Shown here piece after piece: positions 13,431 through 42,910 of a stretch of 64,000 nt of DNA (position 1 is the stretch's first letter; each line of letters starts with the position of its first letter). This stretch comes from the human T2T-CHM13v2.0 reference genome, Homo sapiens, in assembly GCA_009914755.4 (NCBI GenBank), contig CP086569.2, positions 62,048,001 to 62,112,000 of the forward strand, written 5' to 3'. Both the position numbers and the translations under genes were made by a program. The notes beneath the pieces are model-generated. The model did no database searches, had not been told where the DNA came from, and saw only the letters and a list, made by a program, of their open reading frames with translations.

Positions 13431-16400
13431 TTCCATTGCATTCGATTCCATTACATTAGACTCCATTCCATTCAAGTTCATTCCATTCGAGTCCATTCGA
13501 TTCCAGTGAATTGCATTCGAGTCCATTACATTTGATTCCATTCCGTTCCATTCCATTATATTCGATTCCATTCCATTCCAATCCATTCCATTCGATTTCA
13601 TTCCATTCAATTGCATTCCATTAGATTGCATTCCATTCGATTGCATTCCATTCGAGTTCATTCCATTCGAGTTCCTTCCATTCGAGTTCATTCCATTCGA
13701 GTTCATTCCATTCCAGTCCAATCCATTCGAGTCCATTCCATTCCAGTCCTGTATTCGATTCCATTCCATTCCATTCCACTCGATTCCATTCCACTCGATT
13801 CCATTCCACTCGATTCCATTCCATTTGATTCTATTCCATTCCATTCCATTGCATTCAATTCTATTCCATTCCATTCGATTCCTTTCTTTTTGGGTTCATT
13901 CCATTCTAGTCCACTCCATTCCAGTCCACTCCAATCAAATCCATTTCATTCCATTCCAGAAGATTCCATTCCATTCAAGTCCATTCCAGTCGCTTCCAAT
14001 CCATTCCATTCAAGAAGATTCCATTCCATTCAAGTCCATTCCAGTCGATTCCATTCCATTCCATTGCATTCCATTCGATTGTATTCCATTCCATTCCATT
14101 AGAATAGATTCCATTCCATTCTATTCCATTCCATTCGATTCATTTCCTTTCGAGTCCATTCCATTCGAGTCCATTCCAATCAAGTCCATTTCATTCCAGT
14201 CCATTCCATTCGATTCCCTTCCATTCGATTCTATTCCATTCGATTCTATTCCATTCGATTCTATTCCATTCAATTCTATTCCATTCGATTCCATCCCGTT
14301 TGATTGCATTCCATTCGATTGCATTCCATTCGAGTCCATCCAATTGAATCCATTCCATTTGCATCCATTCAATTCGAATCCATTCCATTCGTGTCCATTC
14401 CATTCCATTCCATTCCCTTTGAGTCCATTCCATTCGATTCCATTCCATTCCAGTCCATTCCATTCGGTTCCATTCCATTCCTTTCCATTCCATTCGATTC
14501 CATTCCATTCGATTCCATTCCATTCAATTCCATTCCATTCGAGACTGTACTATTACACTCCATTCGATTCCATTCCATTCGATTACATTCCATTCGATTC
14601 CATTCCATTGCATTCCATTCCATTCCATTAGTTTCCATTCCATTCAATTCCATTCCTTTCGTTTCAAATCCCTTCCATTCAATTCCATTCCATTCAATTC
14701 CATTTCATTCGATTCCATTCCTTTCGAGTCCATTCCATTCAAGTCCATATCATTCCAATCCATTCCCTTTGAGTCCATTCCATTCCAGTCCATTCCACTA
14801 CAGTCCATTCCATCCAATTCCATTCCATTGGATTACATTCCATTCGAATGCATACCATTCGATTACATTCCATTCGAGTCCATTGAATTACACTCCATTC
14901 CATTCCATACCATTCCATTCCATTCGATTGCATTCCATTCAAGTTCATTTCATTGAATTCCATTCCATTCCGGTCGATTACATTCGAGTACAATCCACTC
15001 TATTCCATTCCATACCATTCCATTCCATTCGAGGCGATTCCTTTCAAGTCCATTGCATTGCAGTCCGTTCCATTTGATTCCATCCCATTTGATTCCATCC
15101 CATTCGAGTCCATTCCATTCAAGTCTGTTCCATTCGAGTCCGTTCCATTCGAGTCCGTACCATTCTATTCCATTGCTTTCCTTTCCTTTCCTTTCCTTTC
15201 CATTCCATTCCTTTCCATTCCATTCCATGCGAGTCCATTCCATGCGAGTCCTTTCCATTCCAGTCCATTCCATTCAATTTCGATTGCATTCCATTCCATT
15301 CTAATCCGTTCCATCCGATTGCATGCCATCCGATTGCATGCCATCCGATTTGATTCCATTCTGTTCTATTCCATTCCATTTGATTCCTCTTCCTTTCGAG
15401 TCCATTCCATTCTAGTCCATTCCATTCCAGTCCATTCCATTCGAGTCCATTCCATTCCATTCTAGTCCATTCCATTCCATTAGATTCCAGTGCATTTTAT
15501 GCCATTCCACTCGATTCCATTCCATTCCATTCCATTCCAGTCCATTCGATTCCATTCCATTCAAATCAATTCCATTCCAATCCATTCCATTCCATTCTAT
15601 TCCATTCCATTAAATTTGAATCCATTCCATTCCATTCCAGTCCATTCCTTTCAAGTCCATTCAATTCCATTCCGTTCGAATTCATTCCATTCCATTCCAT
15701 TTGATTCCATTCCATGCCATTCCATTCAATTCAATTCCATTCGATTCCATTCCATTCAAATCAATTCCATTCCAATCCATTCCATTCCATTCTATTCCAT
15801 TCCATTCCACTCTATTCCATTCCATTAAATTTGAATCCATTCCATTCCATTCCAGTCCATTCCTTTCAAGTCCATTCCATTCCATTCCGTTCGAATTCAT
15901 TCCATTCCATTCCATTTGATTCCATTCCATGTCATTCCATTCAATTCAATTCCATTCGATTCCATTCCATTCAAATCAATTCCATTCCATTCTATTCCAT
16001 TCCATTAAATTCGAGTCCAATGCATTCCCTTCCCTTCCATTCCTTTCCATTCCAGTCCATTCCAGTCCAGTCCATTCCATTCGGATCCATTCCATTTCAT
16101 TCCATTGCTTTGAATTCCATTCCATACCATTCCAGTCCAGTCCATTACATTCGAGTCCATTCCATTCGAGTCCATTCCAATTGATTCCCTTTCATTTGAT
16201 TCCATTCCATTCGTTTGCATTCCATTCGATTCCATTCAATTAGATTCCATTCCATTCGTTTCCATTCCATTCGAGTCCATTCCATTCAAGTCCATTCCAT
16301 TCCAGTCCATTACCTTCGAGTCTATTCCATTCCATTCTATTCCATTCCATTCAATTCCATTCCTTTCGATTCCATTCCATTTGAGTCCATTCCATTCCTG

Positions 16401-17220
16401 TCCATTCCATTCCATTCAATTCCATTTCATTCCAGTCCATTCCATTCCTTTCCATTCCATTCCATTCGAGTCCATTCCATTGCATTCCATTGCATTCAAT
16501 TCCATTCGATTCCATGCCATTCCAGTCCATTCCTTTTGAGTCCATTCCATTCCATTCCTTTCGAATCCATTCCATTCCATTCCATGTCATTCCATTCCAT
16601 TCCATTCCATTCCATGTCATTCCATTCCATTCCATTCCCTTCGAATCCATTCCATTCCATTCCGTTTCCTTCCATTTGATTCCATAACATTTGATTCGAT
16701 TCAATTCCTTTCCATTCCAATCCATTCCATTCCATTCCATTAAATTCTATTCCATTCCATTTTATTCCATTTCACTCGAGTCCATTCCATTCAAGTCCAT
16801 TCCATTCCAGGCCATTTCTTTCGAGTCCATTCCATTCTATTCCATTCCATTCCATTCCTTTCGGGACCATTCCATTACTGTCCATTCCATTTGAATCCAT
16901 TCCATTCCAGTCCATTACATTTGATTCCATTCCATTCGATTCCATTCCATTCGATTGCCTTCCATTCCAGTCCATTCCATTTGAGTCCATTCCGTTTCCA
17001 TTCCTTTTGATTCCATTCCTTTCCATTCGAGTCCATTCCATTCCACTCGATTGCATTCCATTCGATTCCATTCCATTCGAGACCGTTCCATTCTGATCCA
17101 TTCAATTCGAGTCCATTCCATTCTATTACATTTCATTAGATTCCATTTCATTTGATTCCATTCCATTCGAGTCCATTCCATTCCATTCCATTCGAATCCA
17201 TTCTATTCCATTCCATTCCA
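13431..17220 (+). repeat. Human Satellite 3 (HSat3 / (CATTC)n = (GGAAT)n), block A, near-pure pentamer with typical cgagtccattc / cgattccattc variants
   Basis: About 3.8 kb of ttccattccattcgagtccattccattcgattccattcc.... Every ORF on both strands here (e.g. 13825-14631 IPFHSIPF...; minus strand MEWNGMEWN...) is a 5-bp-periodic satellite translation. No Alu-derived inserts are present in this block. Confidence 0.95.
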
Positions 17221-20200
17221 TAACACTCCCGTTCCACTTTACTCCACTCCACTCCATTAAATTCCATTATATCCAATTCCGTTCCACTCCATTCCACTCC
17301 TCTCCTCTCCACTGCACTCCACTGCACTCCATTCCACTCCATCCCATTCCATTCTGCTCCATTCCACTGCAATCCACTCCACCCCACTCATCTCCACTTC
17401 ATTCCATTCCATTCCATCCCATTCCATTCCTCTCCATTCCAGTCCACTCTACTTCACCTCACTCCACTCCACTCTAGTCCACTCCATTCCATTCCATTCG
17501 ATTCCACTGCATTCCACGCTATTCCTTTCTTTCAAAAGTATCTCACTCTGTCACCCTGCCTGCAGCACAGTGGCACAATCTCAGCTCACATTTCATTTCA
17601 CCATTCCATTCCATTCCACTCCACTCTACTCCACTCCAATCCATTCCACTCCACTCCAGTCCACTCCACTCCTTTCCATTCCATCCCATTCCATTCCACT
17701 CCTTTCCACTCCACTCCACTCCATTCCATTCCACTGCATTCCATTCCACTTTACTCCAGTCCACTCCACTCCATTTCATTCCACTGCATTGCATTCCACT
17801 CTTTTCCACTCCATTCCATTTCATTCCACTCCATTCCATTCTACTCCCTTCCACTCCTCTCCACCACATTCCACTCCATTCCATTCCCTTCCATTACATT
17901 ACATTCCATTGCATTCCACTCCACTCCACTCCATTCCTCTCCATTCCATTCCATTCCACTCCACTCCATTCCATGCCATTCCATTCCACTCCACTCCATT
18001 CCATTCCATTGCATTCCACTCCATTCTGCTCCACTCCACTCCACTCCACTCCCTTTCATTCCATTCCACTTCACTCCATTGCATTCCATTCCTTTCTTTC
18101 GACAGGATATCACTGTGTCACCCAGGCTGGAGTGCAGTGGCACAATCTCTGCTCACATTACATGTCAACTTTCCATTTCATTGCATTCTATTCCATTGCA
18201 TTCTGCTGAATTCCATTGCATTCCATTGCATTCCATTGCATTCCATTGTATTCCATTCCATTCCGTTCCACTCCACTCCACTACATTCTATAACATCCAA
18301 TTACATTCCACTCCTCTCCATTCCACTGCTCTCCCCACCACTCCATTCCACTCTATCCCATTCCATTCCACTCCATTCCACTGGACTCCGCTCCACCCCA
18401 CTTCACTCCACTTCATTCCATTCCATTCTATCCCATTCCATTCCTCTCCATTCCACTCCACTCCACTTCACTCCACTCCACTCCACTCCACTCCAGTCCA
18501 CTCCATTCCATTCCACTGCATTCCATTCCTTTCCTTTCTTTTGAGAGTATCTCACTCCATCACCCAGCCTGGAGAGCAGTGGCACAATCTCAGCTGACAT
18601 TTCGTTTCACCATTCCATTCAATTCCAATCCATTCAGTTCCATTCCGCTCCACTCCACTCCACTGCAATCCATTCCACTCCACTCCATTCCATTCCACTC
18701 CACTCCTTTCCATTCCATTCCACTCCTTTCCTCTCCAATGCACTCTACTCCACTCCATTCCATTCCACTCCATTAGATTCCATTCCTTTCTTTTGACAGG
18801 ATCTCACTCTGTCACCCAGGCTGGAGTGCATTGGCACAATCTCAGCCCACTTTTCATTTCACCATTCCATTCCATTCCATTCCACTGTACTCCACTCCAA
18901 TCCACTGAATTCCAGTCCACTCCACTCCAACCTATTCCATTCCATTCAATTCCAATCCCTTCCATTGCACTCCTTTCTTTCGACAGGATCTCCCTCTCAC
19001 ACAGGGTGCAGCGCAGTGGCACAATCTCAGCACACATTTCTTTTCACCATTCCATTCCATTCCGTTCCATTCTGTTCCATTCCATTCATTTCCATTGCAT
19101 TCCATCCCACTCCATTCCATTCCACTCCACTCCTCTCCACTCCACTCCCTTCCATTCCATGCCATTCCGTTCCTTCCTTTCCAAAGGATCTCACTCTGTC
19201 ACATAGGCTGGAGTGCAGTGGCACAATCTCAGCTCACATTTCTTTCCACCATTCCATTGCATTCCATTCCATCCCATTCCATTCCTCTCTATTTCACTCC
19301 ACTCGACTCCATTCCACTCCAGTCGACTCCATTCCACTAAACTCGACTCCACTCAACTCCATTCCATTCCATTCCATACCATTTCACTCCATTGCATTCC
19401 ATAGCTTCTTTTCCACAGTATATCATGGTGTCACCCAGGCTGGAGTGCAGTGGCACTATCTCAGCTCATATTACATGTCAACTTTCCATTGCATTGCATT
19501 CTATTCCATTACATTCAATTGCATTCCATTCCTTTCCATTGCATTCCATTCCATTCCATTCCTTTCCATTCCATTCCACTCCGTTCGACTCCACTCCACT
19601 CCATTCCTCTACATTCCATTACATCCGATTCCATTCCACTCCATTCCACTCCTCTGCACTCCACTGCACTCCACTCCATTCCACTCCATCCCATTCCATT
19701 CCGTTCCATTCCACTGCACTCCACTCCACCCCACTCCACTCCACTTCATTCTATTCCATTCCTCTCCATTCCACGCCACTCCTCTTCACTCCACTCCTCT
19801 CCAGTTCACTCCATTCCGTTCTATTCCATTACATTACATTACACTGCATTCCATTCCATTCCATTCCTTTCTTTCGAGAGTATCTCACTCTGTCACCCAG
19901 CCTGGAGTGTAGTGGCACAATCTCAGCACACATTTCATTTCACCATTCCATTCCATTCTATTCCATCCCATTCCATTCCACTCCACTCCATTCCAGTCCA
20001 TTCCATTCCACTCCTTTCCACTCCACTCCATTCCATTCCACTCCATTCCATTCCTTTGTTTTGACAGGGTCTCACTCTGTCACCCAGGCTGGTGTGCAGT
20101 GGCACAATCTCAGCTCACATTTCATTTCACCATTCCACTCCATTCCATTCCATTCCACCGCACTCCACTCCACTCCACTCAATTCCATTCCACTCCAGTC

Positions 20201-23200
20201 CACTCCATTCCATTCCATTCCAATCCCTTAAATTCCACTCCTTTCCTTCAAAAGGATCTCCCTGTGTCACACAGGCTGTAGCACAGTGGCACAATCTCAG
20301 CACACATTTCTTTTCACCATTTCATTCCATTCCATTCCACTCTATTCCATTCCATTCCCTTCCACTCCACTCCAGTCCTCTCCATTCCACTCCACTCCAC
20401 TCCATTCCACTCCATGCCACTCCATGCCAATCCACTCCATTCCATTCCACTCTACTCCACTCCTCTCCATTCCACTCCAATCCACTCCACTCCATTCCAC
20501 TCCATGCCAGTCCACTCCACTCCATTCCATTCCACTCTATTCCACTCCACTCAACTCAATTCCACTCCCCTCCACTCCACTCCATTCCACTCCATTCCAC
20601 TCCCCTCCCCTCCATTGCATTCCCTTCCATTCCATTCCTTTCTTTCCACAGGATCTCACTCTGTCACAAAGGCTGGAGTGCAGTATCACAATCTCAGCTC
20701 ACATTTATTTTCACCATTCCATTGCGTTCCATTCCATCCCATTCTATTCCACTATATTTCACTCCACTCCACTCCATTCCATTCCACTCCATCCCATTCC
20801 ATTCGACTCCACTCCATTCCACTCCATTGCACTCCACTCCACTCCATTCCATTCCACTCTACTTCTCTCCACTCCACTCCCTTCCATGCCATTCCATTCC
20901 ACTCCACTCCTTTCCATTCCATTCCACTCCACTCCATTCCACTCCACTCCATTCCATTCCACTCCATTCCATGCCATTCCATTCCACTCCACTCCATTCC
21001 ACTCTACTCCATTCCACTCCACTCCACTCCATTCCTTTATTTCTACTGGATCTCACTCTATCAACCAGACTGGAGTTCAGTGGCACAATCTTAGATCACA
21101 TTTCATTTCACCATTCCATTCCATTCAATTCCATTCCATACCACTCCGTTCCACTCCACTCCACTCCACTAAATTCCTTTACATCCGATTCCATTCCACT
21201 CCATTCCACTCCTCTCCTCTCCACTGCACTTCACTCCATTCCACTCCATCCCATTCCACTCCATTCCACTGCAATCCACTCCACCCCACTCATCTCCACT
21301 TCATTCCATTCCATTCCATCCTATTCCATTCCTCTCCATTCCAGTCCACTCCACTTCACCCCACTCCACTCCATTCCATGCCATTCCATTCCACTGCATT
21401 CCATTCTATTCCTTTCTTTTGAAAGTATCTCACTCTGTCACCCAGCCTGGAGCGCAGTGGCACAATCTCAGCTCACATTTCATTTCACCATTCCATTCCA
21501 TTCCATCCCACTCCACTCCACTCCACTCCAATCCATTCCACTCCATTCCACTCCACGCCATTCCAGTCCACTCCACTCCTTTCCATTCCATCCCATTCCA
21601 TTCCACTCCTTTCCACTCCACTCCACTCCATTCCATTCCTTTCTTTTGACAGGATCTCACTCTGTCACCCAGGCTGGTGTGCAGTGGTACAGTCTCATCT
21701 CACATTTCACTTCACCATTCCATTCCATTCCATTCTATTCCACAGCACTCCACTCCACTCAATTCGACTCCACTCCACTCCAATCCATTCCATTCCAATC
21801 CCTTCCATTTCACTCCTTTCTTTCGACAGGATCTCCCTCTGTCACACAGGTTTAGTGCAGTGACACAATCTCAGCACACATTTCTTTTCACCATTTCATT
21901 CCATTCCATTCCGTTCCATTCCATTCCATTCCATTACACTCCATTCCATTCCACTGCATTCCATTCCACTCTACTCCAGTCCACTCCACTCCATTTCATT
22001 CCACCACATTCCATTCCACTCTTTTCCACTCCATTCCACTCTATTCCATTCCATTCCACTCCTCTCCACTCCACTCCATTCCATTTCATTCCATTCCACT
22101 CCATTCCATTCCCTTCCATTCCATTCCCTTCCATTACATTCCATTCGATTGCATTCCACTCCACTCCACTCCATTCCTCTCCATTCCATTCCACTCCACT
22201 CCATTCCATACCATTCCATTCCACTCCATTCCATTCCACTCCACTCCATTCCATTGCATTCCACTCCACTCCACTCCACTCCATTCCATTCCATTTCACT
22301 CCATTGCATTCCATTCCTTTCTTTTGACAGGATATCACTGTGTCACCCAGGCTGGAGTGCAGTGGCACAATCTCTGCTCACATTACATGTCAACTTTCCT
22401 TTTCACTGCATTCTATTCCATTGCATTCCATTGCTTTCCATTGCATTCCATTCCATTCCATTCCACTCCACTCTACTCCACTCCATTCCATACCATTCCG
22501 TTCCTTTCTTTCCAAAGGATCTCACTCTGTCACAGAGGCTGGAGTGCAGTGGCACAATCTCAGGTCACATTACATGTCAACTTTCCATTTCTTTGCATTC
22601 AATTGCATTCCATTCCTTTCCATTACATTCCATCACACTCCGACTCCGACTCCACTCCACTCCTCTACATTCCATTACATCCTATTCCATTCCACTCTAT
22701 TCCACTCCTCTCCACTCCACTGCACTCCACTCCACTCCATTCCACTCCATCCCATTCCATTCCTCTCCATTCGGCTGCACTCCACTCCACCCCACTCCAC
22801 TTCATTGCATTCCATTCCATCTCATTCCATTCATCTCCATTCCACTCCACTCCACTTCACTCCACTCCACTCCTCTGCAGTCCACTCCATTCCATTACAC
22901 TGCATTCCATTCCATTCCTTTCTTTCAAGAGTATCTCACTCTGTCACCCAGCCTGGAGCGTAGTGGCACAATCTCAGCTCACATTATATTTCCCCATTCA
23001 ATTCCATTCTATTCCATTCTATTCCACTCCACTCCACTCCAGTACATTCCACTCCACTCCACTCCAGTACATTCCACTCCACTCCACTCCTTTCCAGTCC
23101 ATTCCAGTCCTTCCCATTCCATCCCATTGCATTCCACTCCTTTCCACTCCACTTCCCTCCACTCCAATCCATTCCATTCCACTCCATTCCATTACATTCC

Positions 23201-24788
23201 TTTCTTTTGACAGGATCCCACTCTGTCACTCAGGCTGGTGTGCAGTGGCACAATCTCAGCTCACATATCATTTCATCATTCCACTCCATTCCATTCCATT
23301 CCACTGCACTCCACTCCACTCAATTCCACTCCACTCTACTCCAATCCATTCCATTCCATTCCAATCCCTTCCATTCCACTCCTTTCTTTTGACAGGATCT
23401 CCCTGTGTCACACATTTCTTTTCACCATTTCATTCCATTCCATTCCACTGCATTCCATTCCATTCCCTTCCACTCCACTCCACTCCTCTCCATTCCACTC
23501 CAGTCCACTCCACTCCATTCCAATCCGTGCCACTCCATTCCACTCCACTCCATTCCATTCCACTCTACTCCACTCCACTCAATTCCACTCCACTCAATTC
23601 CACTCCACTCCACTGCATTCCATTGCACTCCATTCCATTCCGTTCCATTCCTTTCTTTCCACAGGATCTCACTCGGTCACAAAGGCTGGAGTGCAGTGGC
23701 ACAATCTCAGCTGACATTTCTTTTCACCATTCCATTGCATTCCATTCCATCCCATTCCATTCCACTGTATTTCACTCCACTCCACTCCACTCCGTTCCAC
23801 TCCATGCCATTCCATTCCACTCCACTCCACTCCATTGCTTTCCATTCCTTTCCTTCGACAGGATATCTCTGTGTCACCCTGGCTGGAGTGCAGTGGCACA
23901 ATCTCAGCTCACATTACATGTCATCTTTCCATTGCGTTGCATTCTATTCCATTGCATTCCATTCCATTCCATTCCTTTCCATTCTGTTCCATTCCATTCA
24001 ATTCTCTTCCATTCCACTCTGTTCCACTCCACTCCCCTCCACTGCACTACATTCCATTACATCCGATTCCATTACACTCCATTCCAGTCCTCTCCACTCC
24101 AGTGCACTCCACTCCACTCCATTCCACTCCATCCCGTTCCATTCCGCTCCATCCCACTGCACTCCACTCCACCCCTCTCCACTCCTCTTCCTTCATTCCA
24201 TTCCATTCCACCTTTTTCCATTCCTCTTGATTGCACTCCAATCCACTTCACTCCACTCCACTCCAATCCATTCCATTCCATTCCACTGCATTCAATTCCA
24301 TTCCTTTCTTTAGAGAGTATCTCACTCTGTCACCAAGCCTGGAGTGCAGTGGCACAATCTCAGCTCACATTTCATTTCACCATTCCATTGCATTCTACTC
24401 CATTAAATTCCACTCCACTCCACTCCAATCCATTCCACTCCACTCCACTCCATTCCAGTCCACTCCAGTCCTTTCCATTCCATCCCATTCCATTCCACTC
24501 CTTTCTACTCCACTCCACTGCTCTCAACTCCATTACATTCCATTCCACTCCATTCCATTCCAGTACTTTCTTTTGACTGTATCTCACTCTGTCACCCAGG
24601 CTGGTGTGCAGTGGCACAATCTCAGCTCACATTTCATTTCACCATTCCATTCCATTCCATTCCACTGCACTGCACTCCACTCAATTCCACTCCACTCTAC
24701 TCCAATCCGTTCCATTCCATTTCAATCCCTTCCATTCCACTCCTTTCTTTCGACAGGGTCTCCCTCTGTCACACAGGCTGTAGTGCAG
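17221..24788 (+). repeat. HSat3 block B: a distinct subfamily (CACTC/CATTC mix) organised as ~1.3-1.6 kb higher-order repeats containing recurrent ~65-bp Alu 3'-end fragments
   Basis: The composition switches at ~17221 (taacactcccgttccactttactccactccactcc...). Alu-derived units have the form ttcctttcttt(c/t)gacaggatctcactctgtcacccaggctggagtgcagtggcacaatctcagctcacatttcatttcaccattccattcc. They occur about 25 times, at ~17530, 18100, 18545, 18795, 18975, 19175, 19405, 19870, 20055, 20250, 20645, 21045, 21415, 21640, 21820, 22320, 22505, 22920, 23205, 23385, 23650, 23855, 24305, 24570 and 24750. Distinguishable variant types recur with a ~1.3-1.6 kb period. The agtatctcactctgtcacccagcctgg type is at 17535/18545/19875/21425/22925/24315. 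The gatatcactgtgtcaccc...cacattacatgtcaactttcc type is at 18100/19410/22325/22540/23860. The gatctccctctgtcacacagg...cagcacacatttcttttcacc type is at 18985/20255/21825/23390/24760. Long flanking satellite stretches are also colinear between periods, e.g. 17280-17570 vs 21190-21480. Confidence 0.9.
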
Positions 24789-27700
24789 GTGATGAGACTA
24801 TTTTATAGTCTCTGTGTATGGGGGCATTTTGACCTATCTCTGCACTGATCACCCAAGTGATGTAACACTTGACTATGCTCTGCCTATTGGGGCATAGTGA
24901 CATATCACTGCATTGATCACTCAGATGTTGTAGCTCTTGCCTAGGCTCTGCCTACATGGGCATTGTGACACATCTCTGAACTGATCAACCAAGTGATGTA
25001 ACCCTTGTCTAGGCTCTGCCTACAGGAGCTTTGTGACATATCTCTGCACTGATCACCCAGGTGATGGGACTTTTGTCTAGGCTCTGCCTACAGTGGCATT
25101 GTGACATATCTCTACAGTAATCAACCAGGTGATGTAACTCTTGTCTAGGCTCTGCCTACAGGGGGCTTTGTGGTATAACTCTGCACTGATCACCCAGGTG
25201 ATGGGACTCTTCTCTAGGTTCTGCCTATTGGGGGCATTGTCACATATTTCTGCACTGATCACCCAGGTGACGGACTCTTGTCTTGGATCTGCCTATGGAG
25301 GCAATGCGACATATCTCTGAACTAATCACCCAGGTGATGTAACTCTTGTTTAGGCTCTGGCCACAGGGACATAGTGACATATATCTGCACTGATCACACA
25401 GGTAATGTAACTCTTCTCTAGTCTCTGCCTACAGAGGGCGTTGTGACATCACTCTGCAATGATCACCCAGGTGATGTAACCATTGTCTAGGCTCTACCTA
25501 CATGGACATTGTAACATGTCTCTGCACTGATCACCCAGGTGATGTAAATTTTGTCTAGGCTCTGCTCACAGGGGCATTTTGACATATCTCTGCACTGATC
25601 ACCGACATGATGTAACTCTTCTCTGGGCTTTGCCGACAGGACTAATTGAGACATATCTCTGCACTGATCACCGAGGTGATGCAACTCTTGTCTGGGCTCT
25701 CCTTACAGGGCGCATTGTGACATATCTGCCCTGATCACCCAGGTGATATAACTCATTTCTAGGTTCTGCCTACAGGGGCGTTATGACATATCTCTGAAGT
25801 GATCACCGAGGTGATGTAACTCCTGTCTAGGCATTGCTTACAGGGTGCATTGTAACATATCTCTGCACTGATCACCCAGGTGATGTAACCCTTGTCTAGG
25901 ATCTGACTAAAGGTTGCTTTGTCACATAACTTTGCACTGATCATCCATGTGATGGGGCTTTTGTCCAGGCTCTGCCTATGAGGGCATTGTGACGTATTTC
26001 TGCACTGATCATCCAGGTGACAGACTCTTGTCTTGCATCTGCCTCTGGGGGCACTGTGAAATATCTCTGCACTGATCACCCAGGTGATGTAACTGTTATA
26101 TAAGCTCTGCCTACAGGGGAATTGTGAGAGATCTCTCCACGGATCACCCAAGTGATGTAACAATTGTCTAGGCTTTGCCTACAGGGGGTTTTGTGACATA
26201 TCTTTGCACTGATCACCCAGGTGATGTAACTCATCTAAGCTCTGCCTACAGGGGCCTTGTGACATATCTCTGCACTGATCACCCCGGGGAGAGAATTCTT
26301 GTCTAGGCTCTGCCTACAAGGGGCTTTTTGACATATCTCTGCACTGATCACCTAGGTGATGTAACTCTGATCTACCCTCTTCCTACAGGGGGCATTGTGA
26401 AGTATGTCTGCACTGATCACCCAGTTGATGCAACTCTTGTCTAGGATCTGCTGACAGGAGGTATTGTAAAATATCTCTGCACTGATCACCTGGGTGATGT
26501 AACTCGTCTACCCTCTGCCTACAGGGGGTATTGTGAAATATCTCTGCACTGATCAACTAGGTGATGTAACTCTTGTCTAGGCTCTGCCTACAGGGGCGTT
26601 TTGACATATCTCTGAACTGATGACAAAAGTGATGTAACTCTTGCCTAGGCTTTGCCTACAGGGGACATTGTGACATATCTCTGCACTGATCACCCAGGTG
26701 ATGCAACTCTTCTCTATGCTCTGCCTACAAACGGCATTGTGACATATCTCTGCACTGATCACCCAGGTGAAGTAACTTTTCCAGTCTCTGCCTACAGAGG
26801 GCGTTGTGACATCATTCTACACGGATCACCAGGGTTATGTAAGTCTTGTCTAGGCTCTGCCTATGGGAGCACTGTGACGTATCTCTGCACTGATCATCTA
26901 GGAGATGTGACTCTTGTCTAAGCTCTGCCTACAGGGGCATTGGGACATATCTCTGCACTGATCACTGAGATGATGTAACACTTGTCAAGGCTTTGCCTAC
27001 AGTGAGATTTATGACATATCTCTGCACTGATCACCCAGTTGATGTAACTCTTGTCTAGGCTCAGCTTACAGGGGGTATTGTGAGATATCTCTGCACTGAT
27101 CACCCAGGTGATGTAACTCTTGTTAGGCTCTGCCTACAGGGGCATTTTAACATATCACTGCACTGATCACCGAGATGATGTAACTTGTACAGGCTTCGCT
27201 GACAGAGGTCTTTGAGACATATCACTTCACTGATCACCGAGGTGATGCAACTCTTGTCTGGGATCTGCCTACAGGGGGCATTGTGACATATCTCTGCATT
27301 GATCACCGAGGTGATGTAACTCTTGTCTAGGCTCTGCCTGCTGGAGACATTGTGACATATCTCTGCACTGATCACCCAGGTGATGTAACTCTTGTCTAGG
27401 CTCTGCCTACATGGACATTGTGACATGTCTCTGCACTGATCACCCAGGTGATGTAAATTTTTTCTAGGCTCTGCCCTCAGGGGCATTTTGACATATCTCT
27501 GCACTGATGACCTAGATGATGTAATTCTTTTCTGGGCTTTGCCGACAGGAGACATTGAGACATATCTCTGTACTGAACACGGAGGTGATGCAACTCTTGT
27601 GTGGGCTCTGCCTACAGGGGGCATTGTGACATATCTCTGCCCTGATCACCCAGGTGATGTAACTCTTGTCTAGGCTCTGCCTAAAGGGGGTATTGTGACA

Positions 27701-30700
27701 TATCTCTGCACTGATCACATAGGTGATGTAACTTTTTCTAGGCTCTGCCTACAGGGGCGTTTTGACATATCTCTGAAGTGATCACCGAGGTTATGTAACT
27801 CTTGTCTAGGCTTTGCCTACAGGGGGCATTGTAATATATCTCTGCACTGATCACCCAGGTGGTGCAACTCTTCTCTAGGCTCTTCTTACAGGGGGCATTG
27901 TGACATATCTCTGCACTGATCACGCAGGTGACTTAACTCTTCTCTAGGCTCTGCCTACAAGGTGCTTCGTGACATCACTCTGTATTGATCATCAAGGTGA
28001 TGTAACTTTTGTCTAGGCTCTGCCTAAGGGGGCATTGTGACATACCTCTGCACTGATCACTGAGGTGATGTGAACCCTGTCTAAGCTCTCCCTATGGGTG
28101 CATTGTGAGATATCTCTGCACTGATTCCCCAGATGATGCAACTCCTTTCTAGGCTTTGCCTAAAGGGGGATTTGTCACATCTCTATAGTGATCACCCAGG
28201 TGATGTAACCCATTTCTAGGCTCTGCCTACAGGGGAATTGTGACATATCACTGCACTGATCACCCAGGTGATGTAACTCTTCTTTAGGGTGTACTTTCAG
28301 GGGGCTTTGTGACGTACCTCTGCACTGATCAACTAGGCGATATAACTCTTTTCTAGGCTTTGCCCTGAGGGGGCATTGTTACATATCTCCATACTGATCA
28401 CCCAGGTAATGCAACTCTTTTCTACTCTCTGCCTACAGCGGCATTGTGACTTATCACTACACTGATAACACAGGTGATGGGACTCTTCCCTACACTCTGC
28501 CTACAGGGGTCTTCATGACATATCTCTGCACTGATAACTCAGGTGATGGGACTTTTCTCTATACTCTGCCTAAAGGGGGATTTGTGACATTTCTGCACCG
28601 ATAACCCAGGTGATGGAAGTCTTGTCTAGGCTCTGTCTACAGGGATTTTTGTGACATATCACTGCACTGATCACCTAGATGATGTAACTCTCATCTAGGC
28701 TCTGCCTACAGAGGCATTTTGATGTATCACTTCACTGATCACCCAGGTGATATAACTCTTGTCTAGCCTCCGCCTACGGGGGTATTGTGACATATCTCTG
28801 CACTGATCACCCAGGCAATGCAACTCTTCTCTAGGCTCTGCCTACAGGGGTCTTTGTGACATATCTCTGCACTGATCACCCAGGTGATGGAAGTCTTGTT
28901 TAGGCTCTGTCTATGGGGTCATTGTGTCAAATATCTGCACTGATCACCCAGGTGATGTAACTCTTGTTTAGGCTCTGTCTGAAAGGATTTTTGTGACGTA
29001 TCACTGCACTGATCACTTAGATGATTTAATTCTTGTCTAGGCTCTGCCTACAGGGGCATTTTGATGTATCATTGTATTCATTACCCAGGTGATGTAACTC
29101 TTGTCTAGGCTCTGCCTATAGGGGGCATTGCGACATATCTCTGCACTGATCACCCAGCTGATGGAACACTTGTCAAGGCTCTGCCTACATGGGCATTGTG
29201 ACACATCTCTGAACTTATCAACCAAGCGATGTAACTCTTGTCTAGCCTCTGCCTACAGGGGTTTTGTGACATATCTCTGCACTGATCACCCAGCTGATGG
29301 AACTTTTGTCTAGGCTCTGCCTACGGGGGCATTGTGACATATCTCTACACTGACCACCCAGGTGATATAACTCTTGTGTTGGATCTGCCTATGGGGACAT
29401 TGCGACATATTTCTGCACTGATCACCCAGGTGATGGGACTCTTTTCCAGGCTCTGTGTATGGGGGCTTTGTGACATATCTCTGCACTGATCACCTACGTG
29501 ATGAAACCTTTGACTAGGCTCTGCCTACTGGGGCATAGTGACATATCACAGCATTGATCACTCAGATGATGTAACTATTGTCTAGGTTCTGCTTAAAGGG
29601 GCCTTGTCACATATCTCTGCACTGCTCATCCAGCTGATGAAACATTTGTCTAGGCTCTGCCTACATAGGCATTGTGACACATCTCTGAATTGATAAACCA
29701 AATGATGTAACTCTTGTCTAGGCTCTACCTACAGGGGCTTTGTGACATATCTCTGTACTGATCAGCCATGTGATGGGACTTTTGTCTAGGCTCTGCCTAC
29801 GGGGGCATTTTGACATATCTCTACACTGATAATCGAGGTGATTTAACTCTTGTGTTGGATCTGCCTAGGGGGCATTGTGACATATTTCTGCACTGATCAC
29901 CCTGGTGATGGGACTCTTGTCTAGGCTCTGTGTATGGGGGCTTTGTGACATATCTCTGCACTGATGACCCAGGTGATGTAATGCTTGACTAGGCTCTGCC
30001 TACTGGCGCATAGTGACATATCACTGCATTGATCACCGAGGTGATGTAACTGTTGTCCAGGCTCTGCCTATAGGGGGCCTTGTGACATACCTCTGCACTG
30101 ATCATCTAGGTGATGTAACTCTTGCTTATGCTCTGCCTGCAGGGGCATTGTGAAATATCTCTTTACTGAACCACCAGGTGATGTAAATCTTGTCTAGGCT
30201 CTGCCTACAGAGGGCATTGTGGCATAACTCAGCACTGATCACCTAGGTGATGGGACTCTTCTCTAGGCTCTGCCTACAGCGGTCATTGTCACATATTTCT
30301 GCACTGATCATCTAGGTGACGGACTCCTGTCTTGGATGTGCCTATGGGGGCATTGTGACATATCTCTGCACTGCTCACCCAGGTGATGTAACTCTGGTGT
30401 AAGCTCTGCCTAAAGGGGCACCGTGACAGATCTCTGCACTGATCACTCAGGTGATGTAACCATTGTCTAGGCTCTGCTTAAAGGGGCCTTGTCACATATC
30501 TCTGCACTGATCACCCAGGTGATATAACTCTTGTCTAGGCTCTGCTTACAGGGGGTATTTTGGCATATCTCTGCACTGGTCACCTAACTGATGTAACACT
30601 TGAGTAGGCTCTGCCTGCAGTGGCATTTTGACATACCTCTGCCCTGATAAGCAAGGTGATTTAACCCTTGTCTACGCTGTTCCCACAGGGGGATTGAGAC

Positions 30701-33700
30701 GTATCTCTGCACTGATCCCGAGGTGATCCAACTCTTTTCTGGGCTCTGCCTACTGGGGACATTGTGACATATCTCTGCACTGATCTCCCTGGTGATGTAA
30801 CATTTGTCTGGGCTCTGGCTACACGGCATTGTGACATATCACTGCACTTATCACCCAGGTGATATAACTCTTGTCTAGGCTCTGCCTACAGGAGGCTTGT
30901 GACATACCTCTGCACTGCTCACCCAGGTGATGTAACTCTTGTCTAGGATCTGCCTACAGGGTGCTTTGTGACATATCCCTGCAATGATCACCCAGATGAT
31001 GTACCACTTGTCAAGGCTCTGCCTACAGGGGCATTGCGATGTATCTGCACTGATCACCTAAGTCATGTAACTCTTATCTAGGCTCTGCCAACAGTGGCAT
31101 TGTGACATATCTCTGCACTGATCACCCCGTGGAGAGAATTCTTGTCTAGGCTCTGCCTACAGGGGCCTTTGTGAGAGATCTCTGCACTGATCACCTAGGT
31201 GATATAAAACTTATAAGCTCTGCCTACAGGGAATTTTGACAAATCTCTGTACTGATCACCTAGGTGATGTAACTCTTGTCTACCCTCTGCCTACAGGGGG
31301 CATTGTGAAATATCTCTGCACTGATAACCCAAGTGATGCAACTCTTGTCTAGGATCTGCCTACAGGGGGTATTGTGAAATATCTCTGCACCGATCAACTA
31401 GGTGATGTAACTCTTTTCTAGGCTCTGCCTACAGGGGCGTTTTGACATATCTCTGAACTGATGAGAAAGGTGATGTAACTCTTGCCTAGGCTTTGCCTAC
31501 AGGGGACATTGTGACATATCTCTGCACGGATCACCCAGGTGATGTAACTCTTTTCTAGTCTATGCCTACGGACGGTGTTGTGACATCACTCTGCACATAT
31601 CACCCGGGTTATGTAACTCTTGTCTGGGCTCTGCTTATGGGAGCATTGTGACTTATCTCTGCACTGATCACCCAGGTGATGTAACTCTTGTCTAAGCTCT
31701 GCCTACAGGGGCATTGGGACATATCTCTACACTGATCACTGAGGTGATGTAACACTTGTCTAGGTTTTGCCTACAGTAGGATTTATGACATATCTCTGCA
31801 CTGATCTCCCAGTTGATGTAATTCTTGCCTAAGCTCTGCTTACAGGGGTATTGTGAGATCTCTGCACTGATCACCCAGGTGATATAATTCTTGTCTAGGC
31901 TCTGCGAACAGGGGCATTTTAACTTATCACTGCACTGATCATCGAGGTGATGCAACTCTTGTCTGGGATCTGCCTACGGGTGGCATTGTGACATATCTCT
32001 GACCTGATCACCCAGGTGATGTAACTCTTGTCTAGGCTCTGCCTGCTGGAGACATTGTGACTTATCTCTGCACTGATCACCCAGGTGATGTATCTCTTGT
32101 CTAGGCTCTGGCCACAGGGACATAGTGACATATATCTGCACTGATCACACAGGTAATGTAACTCTTCCCTAGTCTTTGCCTACAGAGGGCGTTGTGACAT
32201 ATCTCTGCACTGATCTCTCAGGTGAGGTTACTCTTGTCTAGTCTCTGCCTACAGAGGGCGTTGTGACATCACTCTGCAATGATCACCCAGGTGATGTAAC
32301 CATTGTCTGGGCTCTACCTACATGGACATTGTAACATGTCTCTGCACTGATCACCCAGGTGATGTAAATTTTGTCTAGGCTCTGCTCACAGGGGCATTTT
32401 GACATATCTCTGCACTGATCACCGAGATGATGTAACTCTTCTCTGGGCTTTGCCGACAGGACTAATTGAGACATATCTCTACACTGATCACCGAGGTGAT
32501 GCAACTCTTGTCTAGGCATTGCTTACAGGGTGCATTGTAACATATCTCTGCACTGATCACCCAGGTGATGCAACTCTTCTCTAGGTTTTGCCTACAGAGT
32601 GCATTGTGACATATCTCTGCAGTGATCTCCCCGGTGATGTAACCTTTGCCTAGGCTCTGGCCACGCGTCATTGTGACATATCACTGCACTGATCACCCAT
32701 GTGATATAACTCTTGTCTAGGCTCTGCCTATAGTGGCATTGTGACATATCTCTGCACTGATCACCCATGTGATATAACTCTTGTCTGGGCTCTGCCTACA
32801 GTGGCATTGTGACATATCTCTGCACTGATCACCCAGGTGATATAACTATTGTCTAGGATCTGCCTACAGGCTGCTTTGTGACATATCCCTGCAATGATCA
32901 TCCAGGTGATGTACCATTTGTCAAGGCTCTCCTTAAAGGGGCATTGCGATGTATCTCTGCACTGATCACCTAGGTCATGTGACTCTTGTCTAGGCTCTGC
33001 CTGCAGTGGCATTGTGACATATCTCTGCACTGATCACCCAGGTGATATAACTCTTGTCTGGGATCTGCCTAAATGGACTTTGTGACAGAACCCTGCACTG
33101 ATCATCCAGGTGATGGGGTTTTTGTCTAGGCTCTTCCTACGGGGGCATTCTGACTTATTTCTGCACTGATCACCCAGGTGACGGACTCTTGTCTTGCATC
33201 TGCCTATGGGGGCATTGTGACATATCTCAGCACTGATCACCCAGGTGGTGTAACTGTTGTATAAGCTCTACCTACAGGGGAATTGTGAGAGATGTCTTTA
33301 CTCATCCCCCAAGTAATGTAACTATTGCCTAGGCTTAGCCTACAGGGGGCTTTGTGACATAACTTTGCACTCACCACCCAGGTGATGTAACTCATTTAAG
33401 CTCTGCCTACAGGGGCTTTGTGACATATCTCTGCACTTATCACTCCTGGAGAGAGAATTCTTGGCTAGGCTCTGCCCACAGGGAGCTTTGTGACATATAT
33501 CTCTGCACTGATCACGTAGGTGATGTAACACTTTTATAAGCTCTGCCTACAGGGAATTTTGACAAATCTCTGCACTGATCACCTAGGTCATTTAACAGTT
33601 CTCTACGCGCTGCCTACAGGGGGCAATGTGAAAAATCTCTGCACTGATCACCCCGGTGATGCAAGTCTTGTCTAGGATCTGCCTACAGTGGGTATTGTGA

Positions 33701-39300: not shown

Positions 39301-42910
<3,610 letters not shown>

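What the first reader, a model, noticed from the sequence alone, without database searches (positions are those of the whole stretch)
13431..17260. Two different HSat3 subfamilies abut at ~17.2 kb with no spacer
Block A (13431-17220) is near-pure CATTC with cgagtccattc and cgattccattc variants and contains no Alu-derived units. At ~17221 the composition changes within a few pentamers to a CACTC-rich, C-richer pentamer mix (ccactccactccattcc...). From 17527 onward every period carries Alu-end fragments.

Adjacent HSat3 subfamily blocks usually mark different amplification histories. The switch point is a candidate ancient array-array junction, or an unequal-exchange breakpoint.
Basis: seen in the sequence. 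Interest (0 to 1): 0.5.

Follow-up and report, generated by a model that had tools for sequence, protein, structure and literature searches.

The report
Old boundary between two pentamer satellites
At about 17.2 kb a plain CATTC satellite meets, with no spacer, a related CACTC-rich satellite that carries a short Alu fragment in every subunit; the same join occurs in other diverged copies, so it is an old, inherited and fairly ordinary feature of primate pericentromeric DNA.

Summary
A held-out 5-mer likelihood test puts the change point at 17222. CACTC rises from 3.2 to 44.6 per kb, and CGA falls from 22.9 to 2.5 per kb. All 24 antisense Alu 3'-end fragments lie at 17526-24785, and none lies in Block A.

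Block A (13431-17221) is a degenerate HSat3-type array with no long-range repeat. Block B (17222-24785) is a diverged nested repeat. Five Alu-bearing subunit types (S-D-P-K-M) form units of about 1.0-1.55 kb, present about 5.3 times. Block B ends inside an Alu fragment against a 14.5-kb beta-satellite array.

A B-specific 24-mer retrieved at least 120 metagenome contigs. Two of them (L111, L051) carry the same A|B junction, with flanks 89-94% identical to the window. Four carry the same B|beta-satellite junction. The junction is therefore old and belongs to a duplicated module. It is not a recent local exchange or an assembly error.

In the two other copies of the junction (L111, L051) the pentamer register runs unbroken across the junction. 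This favours an exchange within shared CATTC repeats (inferred).

Whether B is one of the published HSat3 subfamilies could not be tested. Interest is low: this is known pericentromeric architecture.

The parts
12920..13386 (+). Truncated L1 ORF2 3'-part fragment that flanks the satellite block on the left
   Evidence: Read directly. Recognised as L1 ORF2 from my own knowledge of the L1 consensus; not tested with a tool.
13387..13429 (.). (TG)n(TA)n microsatellite between the L1 fragment and Block A
   Evidence: Sequence (13380-13430).
13431..17221 (+). Block A: degenerate HSat3-type (CATTC)n array with frequent CGAGTCC and CGATTCC variants, no Alu fragments and no long-range higher-order repeat
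   Evidence: TRF finds period 5 and period 15 at 78% matches. CATTC is 91.5/kb, CGA 22.9/kb and CACTC 3.2/kb. There are only 8 pentamer-phase runs in 3.8 kb. No Alu hits. No recurrent long period in 300-bp windows scanned at offsets up to 1.3 kb.
15400..16050 (+). Local ~215-bp duplication inside Block A
   Evidence: The best ungapped self-identity is 0.91 at offset 215 for the 300-bp window starting at 15531. One search shows an 86% copy at offset 215.
17200..17230 (.). The A|B junction interval. The last A-type CGA variant (cattcgaatcc) sits at ~17190-17200, and B-unit homology begins at ~17222-17224. This copy carries a secondary 4-bp deletion here.
   Evidence: Change point at 17222. Homology to other B copies rises to ~85% from ~17240 and is at background to the left of ~17217. 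Alignments A1 and A2. Register shift in the window only.
17222..24785 (+). Block B: CACTC/CATTC pentamer tracts plus 24 copies of a ~64-nt antisense Alu 3'-end fragment, organised as a diverged nested (higher-order) repeat
17222..17521 (+). First, partial B unit: only the CACTC-rich part of the tract that precedes an S-type subunit
   Evidence: 80-97% identity per 30-bp bin to the equivalent tract of the five later copies, against ~70-75% for control tracts. Alignment A1.
17522..24300 (+). Five full nested-repeat copies: 17522-18530, 18531-19863, 19864-21408, 21409-22914 and 22915-24300. Their canonical subunit order is S-D-P-K-M; the full set of five is seen in copies 2 and 3, and the other copies lack or reorder subunits.
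   Evidence: Lengths are 1009-1545 bp and pairwise identity is 79-85%. Subunits cluster by type; each subunit's nearest neighbour is of the same type in 21 of 23 cases (88-95% identity) against 75-87% for array neighbours.
17526..17589 (-). First Alu 3'-end fragment (S type). The others are at 18093-18156, 18535-18598, 18787-18850, 18972-19035, 19174-19237, 19406-19469, 19868-19931, 20055-20118, 20242-20305, 20639-20702, 21036-21099, 21413-21476, 21640-21703, 21816-21879, 22318-22381, 22505-22568, 22919-22982, 23201-23264, 23652-23715, 23849-23912, 24305-24368 and 24567-24630.
   Evidence: Anchored listing with identical boundaries. Coordinates and consensus.
24301..24785 (+). Last, partial nested-repeat copy (S, D, truncated P)
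24741..24788 (-). P-type Alu fragment truncated by the beta-satellite junction (gtagtgCAG|gtgatgagact). The CAG at 24786-24788 is shared by both partners.
   Evidence: Sequence. The identical breakpoint occurs in L035, L071, L074 and L086.
24786..39298 (.). Beta-satellite array: 68-bp unit, ~213 copies, with a 137-bp dimer periodicity
   Evidence: TRF. Recognised as beta satellite from the 68-bp unit; the 68-bp definition is.
39299..40500 (+). L1 ORF2 5'-part fragment that abuts the beta satellite. It is not contiguous with the left-hand L1 fragment.
   Evidence: Sequence and A-rich skew. L1 identity rests on my own knowledge and was not tested with a tool.

Best explanation
The switch at ~17222 is an old, inherited boundary between two pentameric satellites with separate amplification histories.

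Block A is a degenerate HSat3-type (CATTC)n array. Block B derives from the same pentamer but went through further steps:
1. It acquired an antisense Alu.
2. The Alu was cut down to its last ~64 nt.
3. A CACTC variant spread through the pentamer tracts.
4. The tract-plus-Alu-fragment unit was amplified and diverged into five subunit types (S, D, P, K, M).
5. The five-subunit block of ~1.4 kb was amplified again.

The left end of B is a real breakpoint relative to the B unit. It falls where each B unit passes from a CATTC-rich tract into its CACTC-rich tract, and at the junction Block A replaces that CATTC-rich tract. In L111 and L051 the pentamer register is unbroken and there is no filler. 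The most likely origin is therefore an in-register ectopic exchange between CATTC repeats of an A-type array and the CATTC-rich tract of a B unit (inferred).

The right end of B was joined to beta satellite inside a P-type Alu fragment, with a 3-nt CAG overlap. The resulting A|B|beta-satellite module was then copied to several loci. Afterwards the number of B units changed between copies: 7.6 kb here, at least ~2.3 kb in L111 (the contig ends just short of where the beta-satellite junction would be), and ~0.9 kb in L035.

Shown: the step change, the structure of B, both junctions, and their presence in diverged copies. Inferred: the order of events and the recombination mechanism.
For: - Change point at 17222 in held-out data, with stepwise k-mer sharing and motif counts.
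- All 24 Alu fragments share one truncation point and one flank, so they descend from one insertion.
- Subunits cluster by type rather than by position, and there are five full copies of 1.0-1.55 kb.
- The K-M-S-D subunit order recurs in many other contigs. L111 reads S-D-K-M-S-D, matching the last units of the window.
- B-unit homology stops at the junction. The A-side flank is no more similar to the tract that precedes the switch in B units than random A segments are (null fractions 0.10-0.57). In L035, by contrast, that tract is present and homologous beyond every null at 40-80 nt.
- The same A|B junction occurs in L111 and L051. Colinear alignments cross it (L111 655-1973 to window 16141-17441; L051 2498-4613 to 15589-17671). 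The 125 bp on each side are 91-94% (L111) and 89-91% (L051) identical, against at most 87.8% for any other A segment. See also alignment A2.
- The register is continuous for more than 200 bp on both sides in L111 and L051.
- The same B|beta-satellite breakpoint occurs in four contigs, and L035 aligns across it at 87% over 942 bp.
- The literature reports that HSat3 units often include fragments of old transposable elements and form nested tandem repeats. It also reports that tandem ACTCC (= CACTC) is a pericentromeric repeat spread over chromosomes 13, 14, 15, 21 and 22.
Against: - The species and chromosome of the window and of the metagenome contigs are unknown, so L111 and L051 could be orthologues from other primates rather than paralogues. 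The junction would still be old, but 'duplicated module' would be weaker.
- No contig matches the window above 91.4%.
- An unbroken register is expected by chance in 1 of 5 non-homologous joins, so the recombination mechanism rests on weak evidence.
- Inside pentamer repeats the breakpoint cannot be placed more precisely than ~17200-17224.
Confidence: 0.78

Rival explanations
1. B was born in place. A segment at the edge of the A array, already carrying the Alu fragment and CACTC variants, was tandemly duplicated. The 'junction' is then simply the left edge of the first duplicated unit, not a join of two separate arrays.
For: Both blocks have the same strand, no spacer, and an unbroken pentamer register in L111 and L051. 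B units themselves contain CATTC-rich tracts. B still has 51 CATTC per kb.
Against: B-type arrays occur in many other contexts: next to alpha satellite, next to unique sequence, and next to HSat3 with the CGGGTTG motif. In L035 the B unit is preceded by its own specific CATTC-rich tract, which A replaces at the window junction. The subunit order is shared across loci, so the repeat was formed before it was dispersed. This model also still requires a pre-existing compositional switch at the duplication edge.
Confidence: 0.15
2. The junction is a recent, locus-specific unequal crossover or other rearrangement between two neighbouring arrays.
For: The window shows a +1 pentamer register shift exactly at the switch.
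Against: The same junction is present in L111 and L051, whose flanks differ from the window by 6-11%. The register shift is a 4-bp deletion private to the window copy.
Confidence: 0.03
3. The junction is an assembly artefact: two satellite contigs were joined wrongly through shared CATTC repeats.
For: Satellite arrays are prone to collapse and false joins.
Against: Independent assemblies from other samples contain the same A|B join (L111, L051) and the same B|beta-satellite join (L035, L071, L074, L086).
Confidence: 0.02
4. There is no discrete junction. B is A after gradual T-to-C drift and CpG decay.
For: CATTC to CACTC is a single transition. B has far fewer CpG (6.6 vs 28.2 per kb).
Against: The change is complete within ~25 bp. 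All bins on each side are uniform. B-unit homology starts at the same point.
Confidence: 0.02

Closest known systems
Human satellite 3 (HSat3; classical satellite III; 11 HSat3 subfamilies A1-A6 and B1-B5 of Altemose et al. 2014, PMC4022460)
   Same: Both blocks are built on the (CATTC)n pentamer on one strand. Block A has the usual CGA-containing variants and a 15-bp sub-periodicity. Adjacent arrays with distinct composition are the basis on which the subfamilies were defined.
   Different: Neither block contains the CGGGTTG (CAACCCGAGT-type) motif. Neither contains any of the 14 most common subfamily-specific 24-mers. B is nearly half CACTC, a variant class that the 2014 study set aside as not forming large arrays.
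ACTCC (= CACTC) pericentromeric simple satellite (PMC11305138)
   Same: B contains 83 tandem CACTC runs of up to 5 units, interleaved with CATTC. The paper reports ACTCC at ~13 kb per genome, spread over the pericentromeres of chromosomes 13, 14, 15, 21 and 22, and suggests it forms arrays nested in HSat3. This fits the beta-satellite and HSat3 neighbours seen here.
   Different: The paper describes only the short-read k-mer. It does not describe the Alu fragment, the five-subunit nested repeat or the fixed junctions.
Nested tandem repeats and transposon-fragment-bearing satellite units (Altemose et al. 2021/2022; HSat1B/DYZ2 with one Alu per 2.47-kb unit)
   Same: A transposon fragment was captured once and then amplified as part of the satellite unit. 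A simple repeat is organised into kilobase-scale units.
   Different: Here the unit is pentamer-based rather than AT-rich. The Alu part is only ~64 nt. The copies are old and diverged (79-85%), not homogeneous.
Beta satellite (68-bp Sau3A family) arrays of acrocentric short arms and pericentromeres
   Same: The right-hand neighbour is a 14.5-kb array with a 68-bp period. Beta satellite is enriched on acrocentric short arms.
   Different: It is not part of the A|B junction itself. It matters only as the third member of the recurring module.

Membership tests
HSat3 (satellite III) | Derived from a tandem (CATTC)n / (GGAAT)n pentamer | tested here: met
   TRF finds period 5 over 13431-24562. CATTC rotations make up 35-54% of 5-mers in A and 16-46% in B.
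HSat3 (satellite III) | Interspersed A(T/C)TCGGGTTG (CAACCCGAGT-type) motif. This is the classical definition of Prosser et al. 1986, recalled from my own knowledge. | tested here: not met
   CGGGTTG occurs 0 times in A and 0 times in B. It is present in some related contigs, for example L035 (3) and L056 (12). Not all modern HSat3 subfamilies carry the motif, so this lowers but does not exclude membership.
One of the 14 published HSat2/3 subfamilies (Altemose 2014) | [quoted passage not shown] | tested here: inconclusive
   Only the most common 24-mer of each subfamily could be tested. There were no exact or 1-mismatch hits except two 1-mismatch hits to HSat3A2. At 2 mismatches or fewer, A is nearest to A1 and A2. 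The held copy of Dataset S2 is cut within the subfamily-sorted list and only its opening (2A1) part was viewed, so the full list could not be run.
HSat2 | The HSat2-specific 24-mers of Altemose 2014 (for example CATTCGATTCCATTCGATGATAAT) | tested here: not met
   No hit to the HSat2A2 or HSat2B top 24-mers at 2 mismatches or fewer (the 2A1 24-mer was checked only against the related contigs).
ACTCC/CACTC simple satellite | CACTC repeated in tandem, in a pericentromeric setting | tested here: met
   For B: 83 runs of at least 2 units and 29 runs of at least 3 units, against none in A. B is flanked by HSat3-type sequence and beta satellite. Related contigs abut alpha satellite.
Nested tandem repeat / higher-order repeat | Units at the same position of different copies are more alike than neighbouring units | tested here: met
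   For B: mean identity is 0.87 within a subunit type and 0.81 between types. The nearest neighbour is of the same type in 21 of 23 subunits. For A: no long period, apart from one local 215-bp duplication.
Composite (transposon-fragment-bearing) satellite | The same transposon fragment, with the same truncation point, in every unit | tested here: met
   There are 24 fragments, all ending at Alu position ~224 with the flank ATTTCATTTCACC or its M-type variant. The boundary 24-mer occurs 15 times at 2 mismatches or fewer, against 0 expected.

The most novel reading that the evidence does not exclude
Block B may represent a distinct, so far unnamed composite satellite family. Its features would be CACTC/CATTC pentamer tracts, a fixed ~64-nt Alu 3' fragment, and five subunit types in a ~1.4-kb nested repeat. 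Its fixed junctions to HSat3-type arrays and to beta satellite would define a module copied among acrocentric and pericentromeric regions. The two junction sequences could then serve as markers for tracing exchange between non-homologous chromosomes.
Probability: 0.2. Interest if true: 0.35.

Novelty: new member of a known kind. Interest (0 to 1): 0.2.

Why it matters
This has little consequence beyond annotation. It shows that a sharp compositional switch inside a pentamer satellite can be an inherited breakpoint shared by diverged copies. It gives exact coordinates and signature sequences for the A|B and B|beta-satellite joins. It also links the short-read 'ACTCC' satellite to a concrete repeat architecture.

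Junction k-mers of this kind can help to place reads in satellite-rich regions and to follow duplication or exchange among acrocentric short arms.

One possible functional side effect is inference only: replacing GGAAT by GGAGT should lower the density of GGAAT-based factor sites that are reported for HSat3. CATTCC falls only from 63.8 to 46.7 per kb, so the effect would be modest.

Tried and rejected
1. Out-of-register join. The window shows a +1 pentamer phase shift exactly at the switch, which suggested a non-homologous join. I rejected this because L111 and L051 have an unbroken register, and the window carries a private 4-bp deletion.

2. B homology hidden inside the end of A. By eye the A-side flank resembled the CATTC-rich tract of the B units. 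Against 290 random in-register A segments the resemblance is not significant.

3. The whole satellite block as an insertion into one L1. The left flank is a 3' part of ORF2 and the right flank is a 5' part of ORF2, both on the plus strand. They are not the two halves of one interrupted element.

4. Classification against the published 24-mer sets. Only the top 24-mer of each subfamily was available. The held copy of Dataset S2 is cut within the subfamily-sorted list, and the part viewed held only 2A1 24-mers.

5. A Repbase/Dfam name for B (HSAT5 or HSAT4 was my lead from memory). The literature searches returned no sequence description, so the lead remains untested.

6. Scans of genome contigs and viral contigs for the junction pattern found nothing.

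7. No related contig shares the non-satellite flanks of the window. Only Alu-to-Alu matches were found.

8. Alu subfamily. The fragment consensus (GTGAGCTGAGATTGTGCC...GAGATCCTGTC) shows S-like and J-like features against consensus sequences recalled from memory. I leave it as 'old Alu with all CpG sites decayed'.

9. A fuzzy-regex search timed out and was replaced by blastn.

10. Ungapped autocorrelation does not reveal the B nested repeat because of indels. Subunit clustering was used instead.


Full report
**What is in the window.** The 13.4-39.3 kb region is a patchwork of three satellites between L1 fragments.
- An L1 ORF2 3'-part fragment ends at ~13386. It is followed by (TG)n(TA)n up to 13429.
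- A 5-bp-period array runs from 13431 to ~24785 (TRF).
- A 68-bp-period array, beta satellite, runs from 24786 to 39298.
- It abuts an L1 ORF2 5'-part fragment at 39299.

GC content steps from ~0.40 to ~0.47 between the 16-17 kb and 17-18 kb bins, while GC skew stays strongly negative. So the pentamer array keeps one orientation but changes composition.

**Checking the observation.** In 250-bp bins the share of CACTC rotations is 0.00-0.08 up to bin 17001 and 0.10-0.41 from bin 17251. CGA drops from 2-9 per bin to 0-3 per bin.

I trained 5-mer models on the two cores and scored the untouched stretch 16701-17800. The cumulative log-likelihood ratio turns at 17222. Every 50-bp bin before bin 17201 is negative and every bin from 17201 on is positive.

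Counts, A versus B:
- CACTC: 12 vs 337, against CATTC 347 vs 388 (Fisher p = 7.8e-57)
- CGAGTCC: 25 vs 0

Tandem CACTC runs number 0 in A and 83 in B. Sharing of 12-, 16- and 24-mers between 500-bp bins is three to ten times higher within blocks than between them, and only the straddling bin is intermediate.

There are 24, all antisense, all ending at Alu position ~224 next to ATTTCATTTCACC or a variant of it.

**Structure of Block B.** The Alu-bearing subunits fall into five types (S, D, P, K, M). For 21 of the 23 full subunits the nearest relative (88-95% identity) is a same-type subunit elsewhere in the array, usually 1.3-4.4 kb away. Neighbouring subunits are only 75-87% identical.

Cutting at the S subunits gives five full copies of 1009-1545 bp. 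They are 79-85% identical to one another and carry large indels. There is also a partial first copy (17222-17521) and a partial last copy (24301-24785).

B is thus an old nested tandem repeat seeded by one Alu insertion. In the fragment consensus every CpG of the Alu has decayed.

**Structure of Block A.** A has no long-range repeat. It shows a 15-bp sub-period, seven phase shifts in 3.8 kb and a single local 215-bp duplication near 15.4-16.05 kb.

**Where B homology ends.** I aligned the 620 bp upstream of the first S subunit to the same tract of the five later copies. Identity is ~85% from ~17240 rightwards and at control level to the left of ~17217 (alignment A1).

In later copies the CACTC-rich tract is preceded by a CATTC-rich tract that follows the M-type Alu fragment. 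I tested whether the end of Block A is that tract in disguise. Against 290 in-register A segments it is not (null fractions 0.10-0.57). So 17222 is a true breakpoint relative to the B unit, placed at the unit's own CATTC-rich to CACTC-rich transition.

**Related sequences.** The B-specific boundary 24-mer GCTCACATTTCATTTCACCATTCC occurs 15 times in the window at 2 mismatches or fewer, against 0 expected. These are presumably host DNA.
- Nearly all are B-like, with Alu fragments every few hundred bases.
- None matches the window above 91.4%.
- None shares its non-satellite flanks.
- Nine contain the most common HSat3A4 24-mer exactly, L035 contains the HSat3B4 24-mer and L056 the HSat3B5 24-mer.
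- Several abut alpha satellite.

**The junctions are shared.** L111 and L051 have an A-to-B change point whose sequence matches the window's on both sides.
- Colinear alignments cross the junction: L111 655-1973 to window 16141-17441, and L051 2498-4613 to window 15589-17671.
- The 125 bp on the A side are 94.0% (L111) and 91.0% (L051) identical to the window. The best unrelated A segment reaches 87.8%.

L035, L071, L074 and L086 all carry the window's B|beta-satellite breakpoint, gtagtgCAG|gtgatgagact, inside a P-type Alu fragment. L035 aligns across it at 87% over 942 bp.

L111 reads S-D-K-M-S-D after the junction. That equals the last 1.6 units of the window, so its B is at least ~2.3 kb against 7.6 kb here (the contig ends just short of where the beta-satellite junction would be). 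L035 has only ~0.9 kb of B. There the CATTC-rich tract upstream of the switch is present and homologous to window copy 5 beyond every null at 40-80 nt.

**A retracted inference.** In the window the pentamer phase shifts by +1 exactly at the switch, which at first suggested a non-homologous join. L111 and L051 show an unbroken phase for more than 200 bp on each side. Alignment A2 shows that the window has a private 4-bp deletion (CCATAACAC----TCCCG against CCATTCCATACCACTCCG). The ancestral junction was in register.

**Interpretation.** The junction is an ancient boundary inherited by at least three diverged copies, and it is one edge of an A|B|beta-satellite module. Three features point to an in-register exchange between the CATTC repeats of an A-type array and the CATTC-rich tract of a B unit:
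- There is no spacer.
- The register is unbroken.
- The break sits at the edge of a CATTC-rich tract of the B unit.

This step is inferred. An unbroken register alone has a 1-in-5 chance under random joining. Later unequal exchange among B units explains the different B lengths. The evidence above contradicts three alternatives: a recent local exchange, an assembly error, and gradual drift. In-place birth of B at the edge of A remains possible but is less likely.

**Comparison with what is known.**
- HSat3 subfamilies are defined by distinct composition in separate arrays.
- HSat3 and other satellites often carry old transposon fragments in their units and form kilobase-scale nested repeats.
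- Tandem ACTCC (= CACTC) is a reported pericentromeric repeat of the acrocentric chromosomes and was proposed to sit inside HSat3 arrays.
- The study that defined the subfamilies excluded CACTC-type variants.

I could not test B against the full 24-mer lists, so 'two HSat3 subfamilies' is only partly supported. The phenomenon is known. The particular repeat and its two fixed junctions were not found described in the papers I could search.

**Verdict.** This is a real, sharp and old junction, and ordinary for primate pericentromeric or acrocentric DNA. Interest is 0.2, and I rate it a new member of a known kind.

Noticed in passing
window 24741-24800: Block B meets the beta satellite inside a P-type Alu fragment (gtagtgCAG|gtgatgagact). 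Three bases (CAG) are common to both partners. The identical breakpoint is present in contigs L035, L071, L074 and L086.
   Followed up: yes
window 24786-39298: A 14.5-kb beta-satellite array with a 68-bp unit, ~213 copies at 78% matches, and a 137-bp dimer periodicity. Its internal structure and orientation changes were not examined.
   Followed up: no
window 39290-39310: The beta satellite ends abruptly against an L1 ORF2 5'-part fragment on the plus strand. The L1 fragment on the other side of the satellite block (12920-13386) is a later part of ORF2, so the two are not halves of one interrupted element.
   Followed up: partly
window 13387-13429: A (TG)n(TA)n microsatellite sits exactly between the truncated L1 fragment and the first pentamer of Block A. 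It may be filler or a slippage product at that junction.
   Followed up: no
window 15400-16050: The only clear longer repeat inside Block A is a ~215-bp segment duplicated in tandem at ~91% identity.
   Followed up: partly
window 17219-17228: This copy of the A|B junction has a private 4-bp deletion relative to L111 and L051. The deletion shifts the pentamer register by one base.
   Followed up: yes
L001-L120 (metagenome contigs): At least 120 metagenome contigs (340 kb) carry this primate satellite, evidently host DNA in metagenome assemblies. Nine contain the exact top HSat3A4 24-mer. L038, L049, L082, L085, L092 and L093 join B-type repeats to alpha satellite.
   Followed up: partly
L049, last ~150 bases (oriented): A further pentamer variant array, (CACTA)n with occasional CATTA, lies next to B-type sequence.
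   Followed up: no
L035 1-1100 (oriented): Canonical HSat3 with CTCGGGTTGATT and TCGTGTTGATT motifs, and the exact HSat3B4 top 24-mer at position 630, runs directly into a short B block and then beta satellite. This hints that B-type repeats may be related to HSat3B4 arrays.
   Followed up: partly
window 12000-12915: L1 ORF2 sequence in antisense orientation lies directly upstream of the sense-oriented L1 fragment at 12920-13386, so the left flank is itself a rearranged L1 patch.
   Followed up: no
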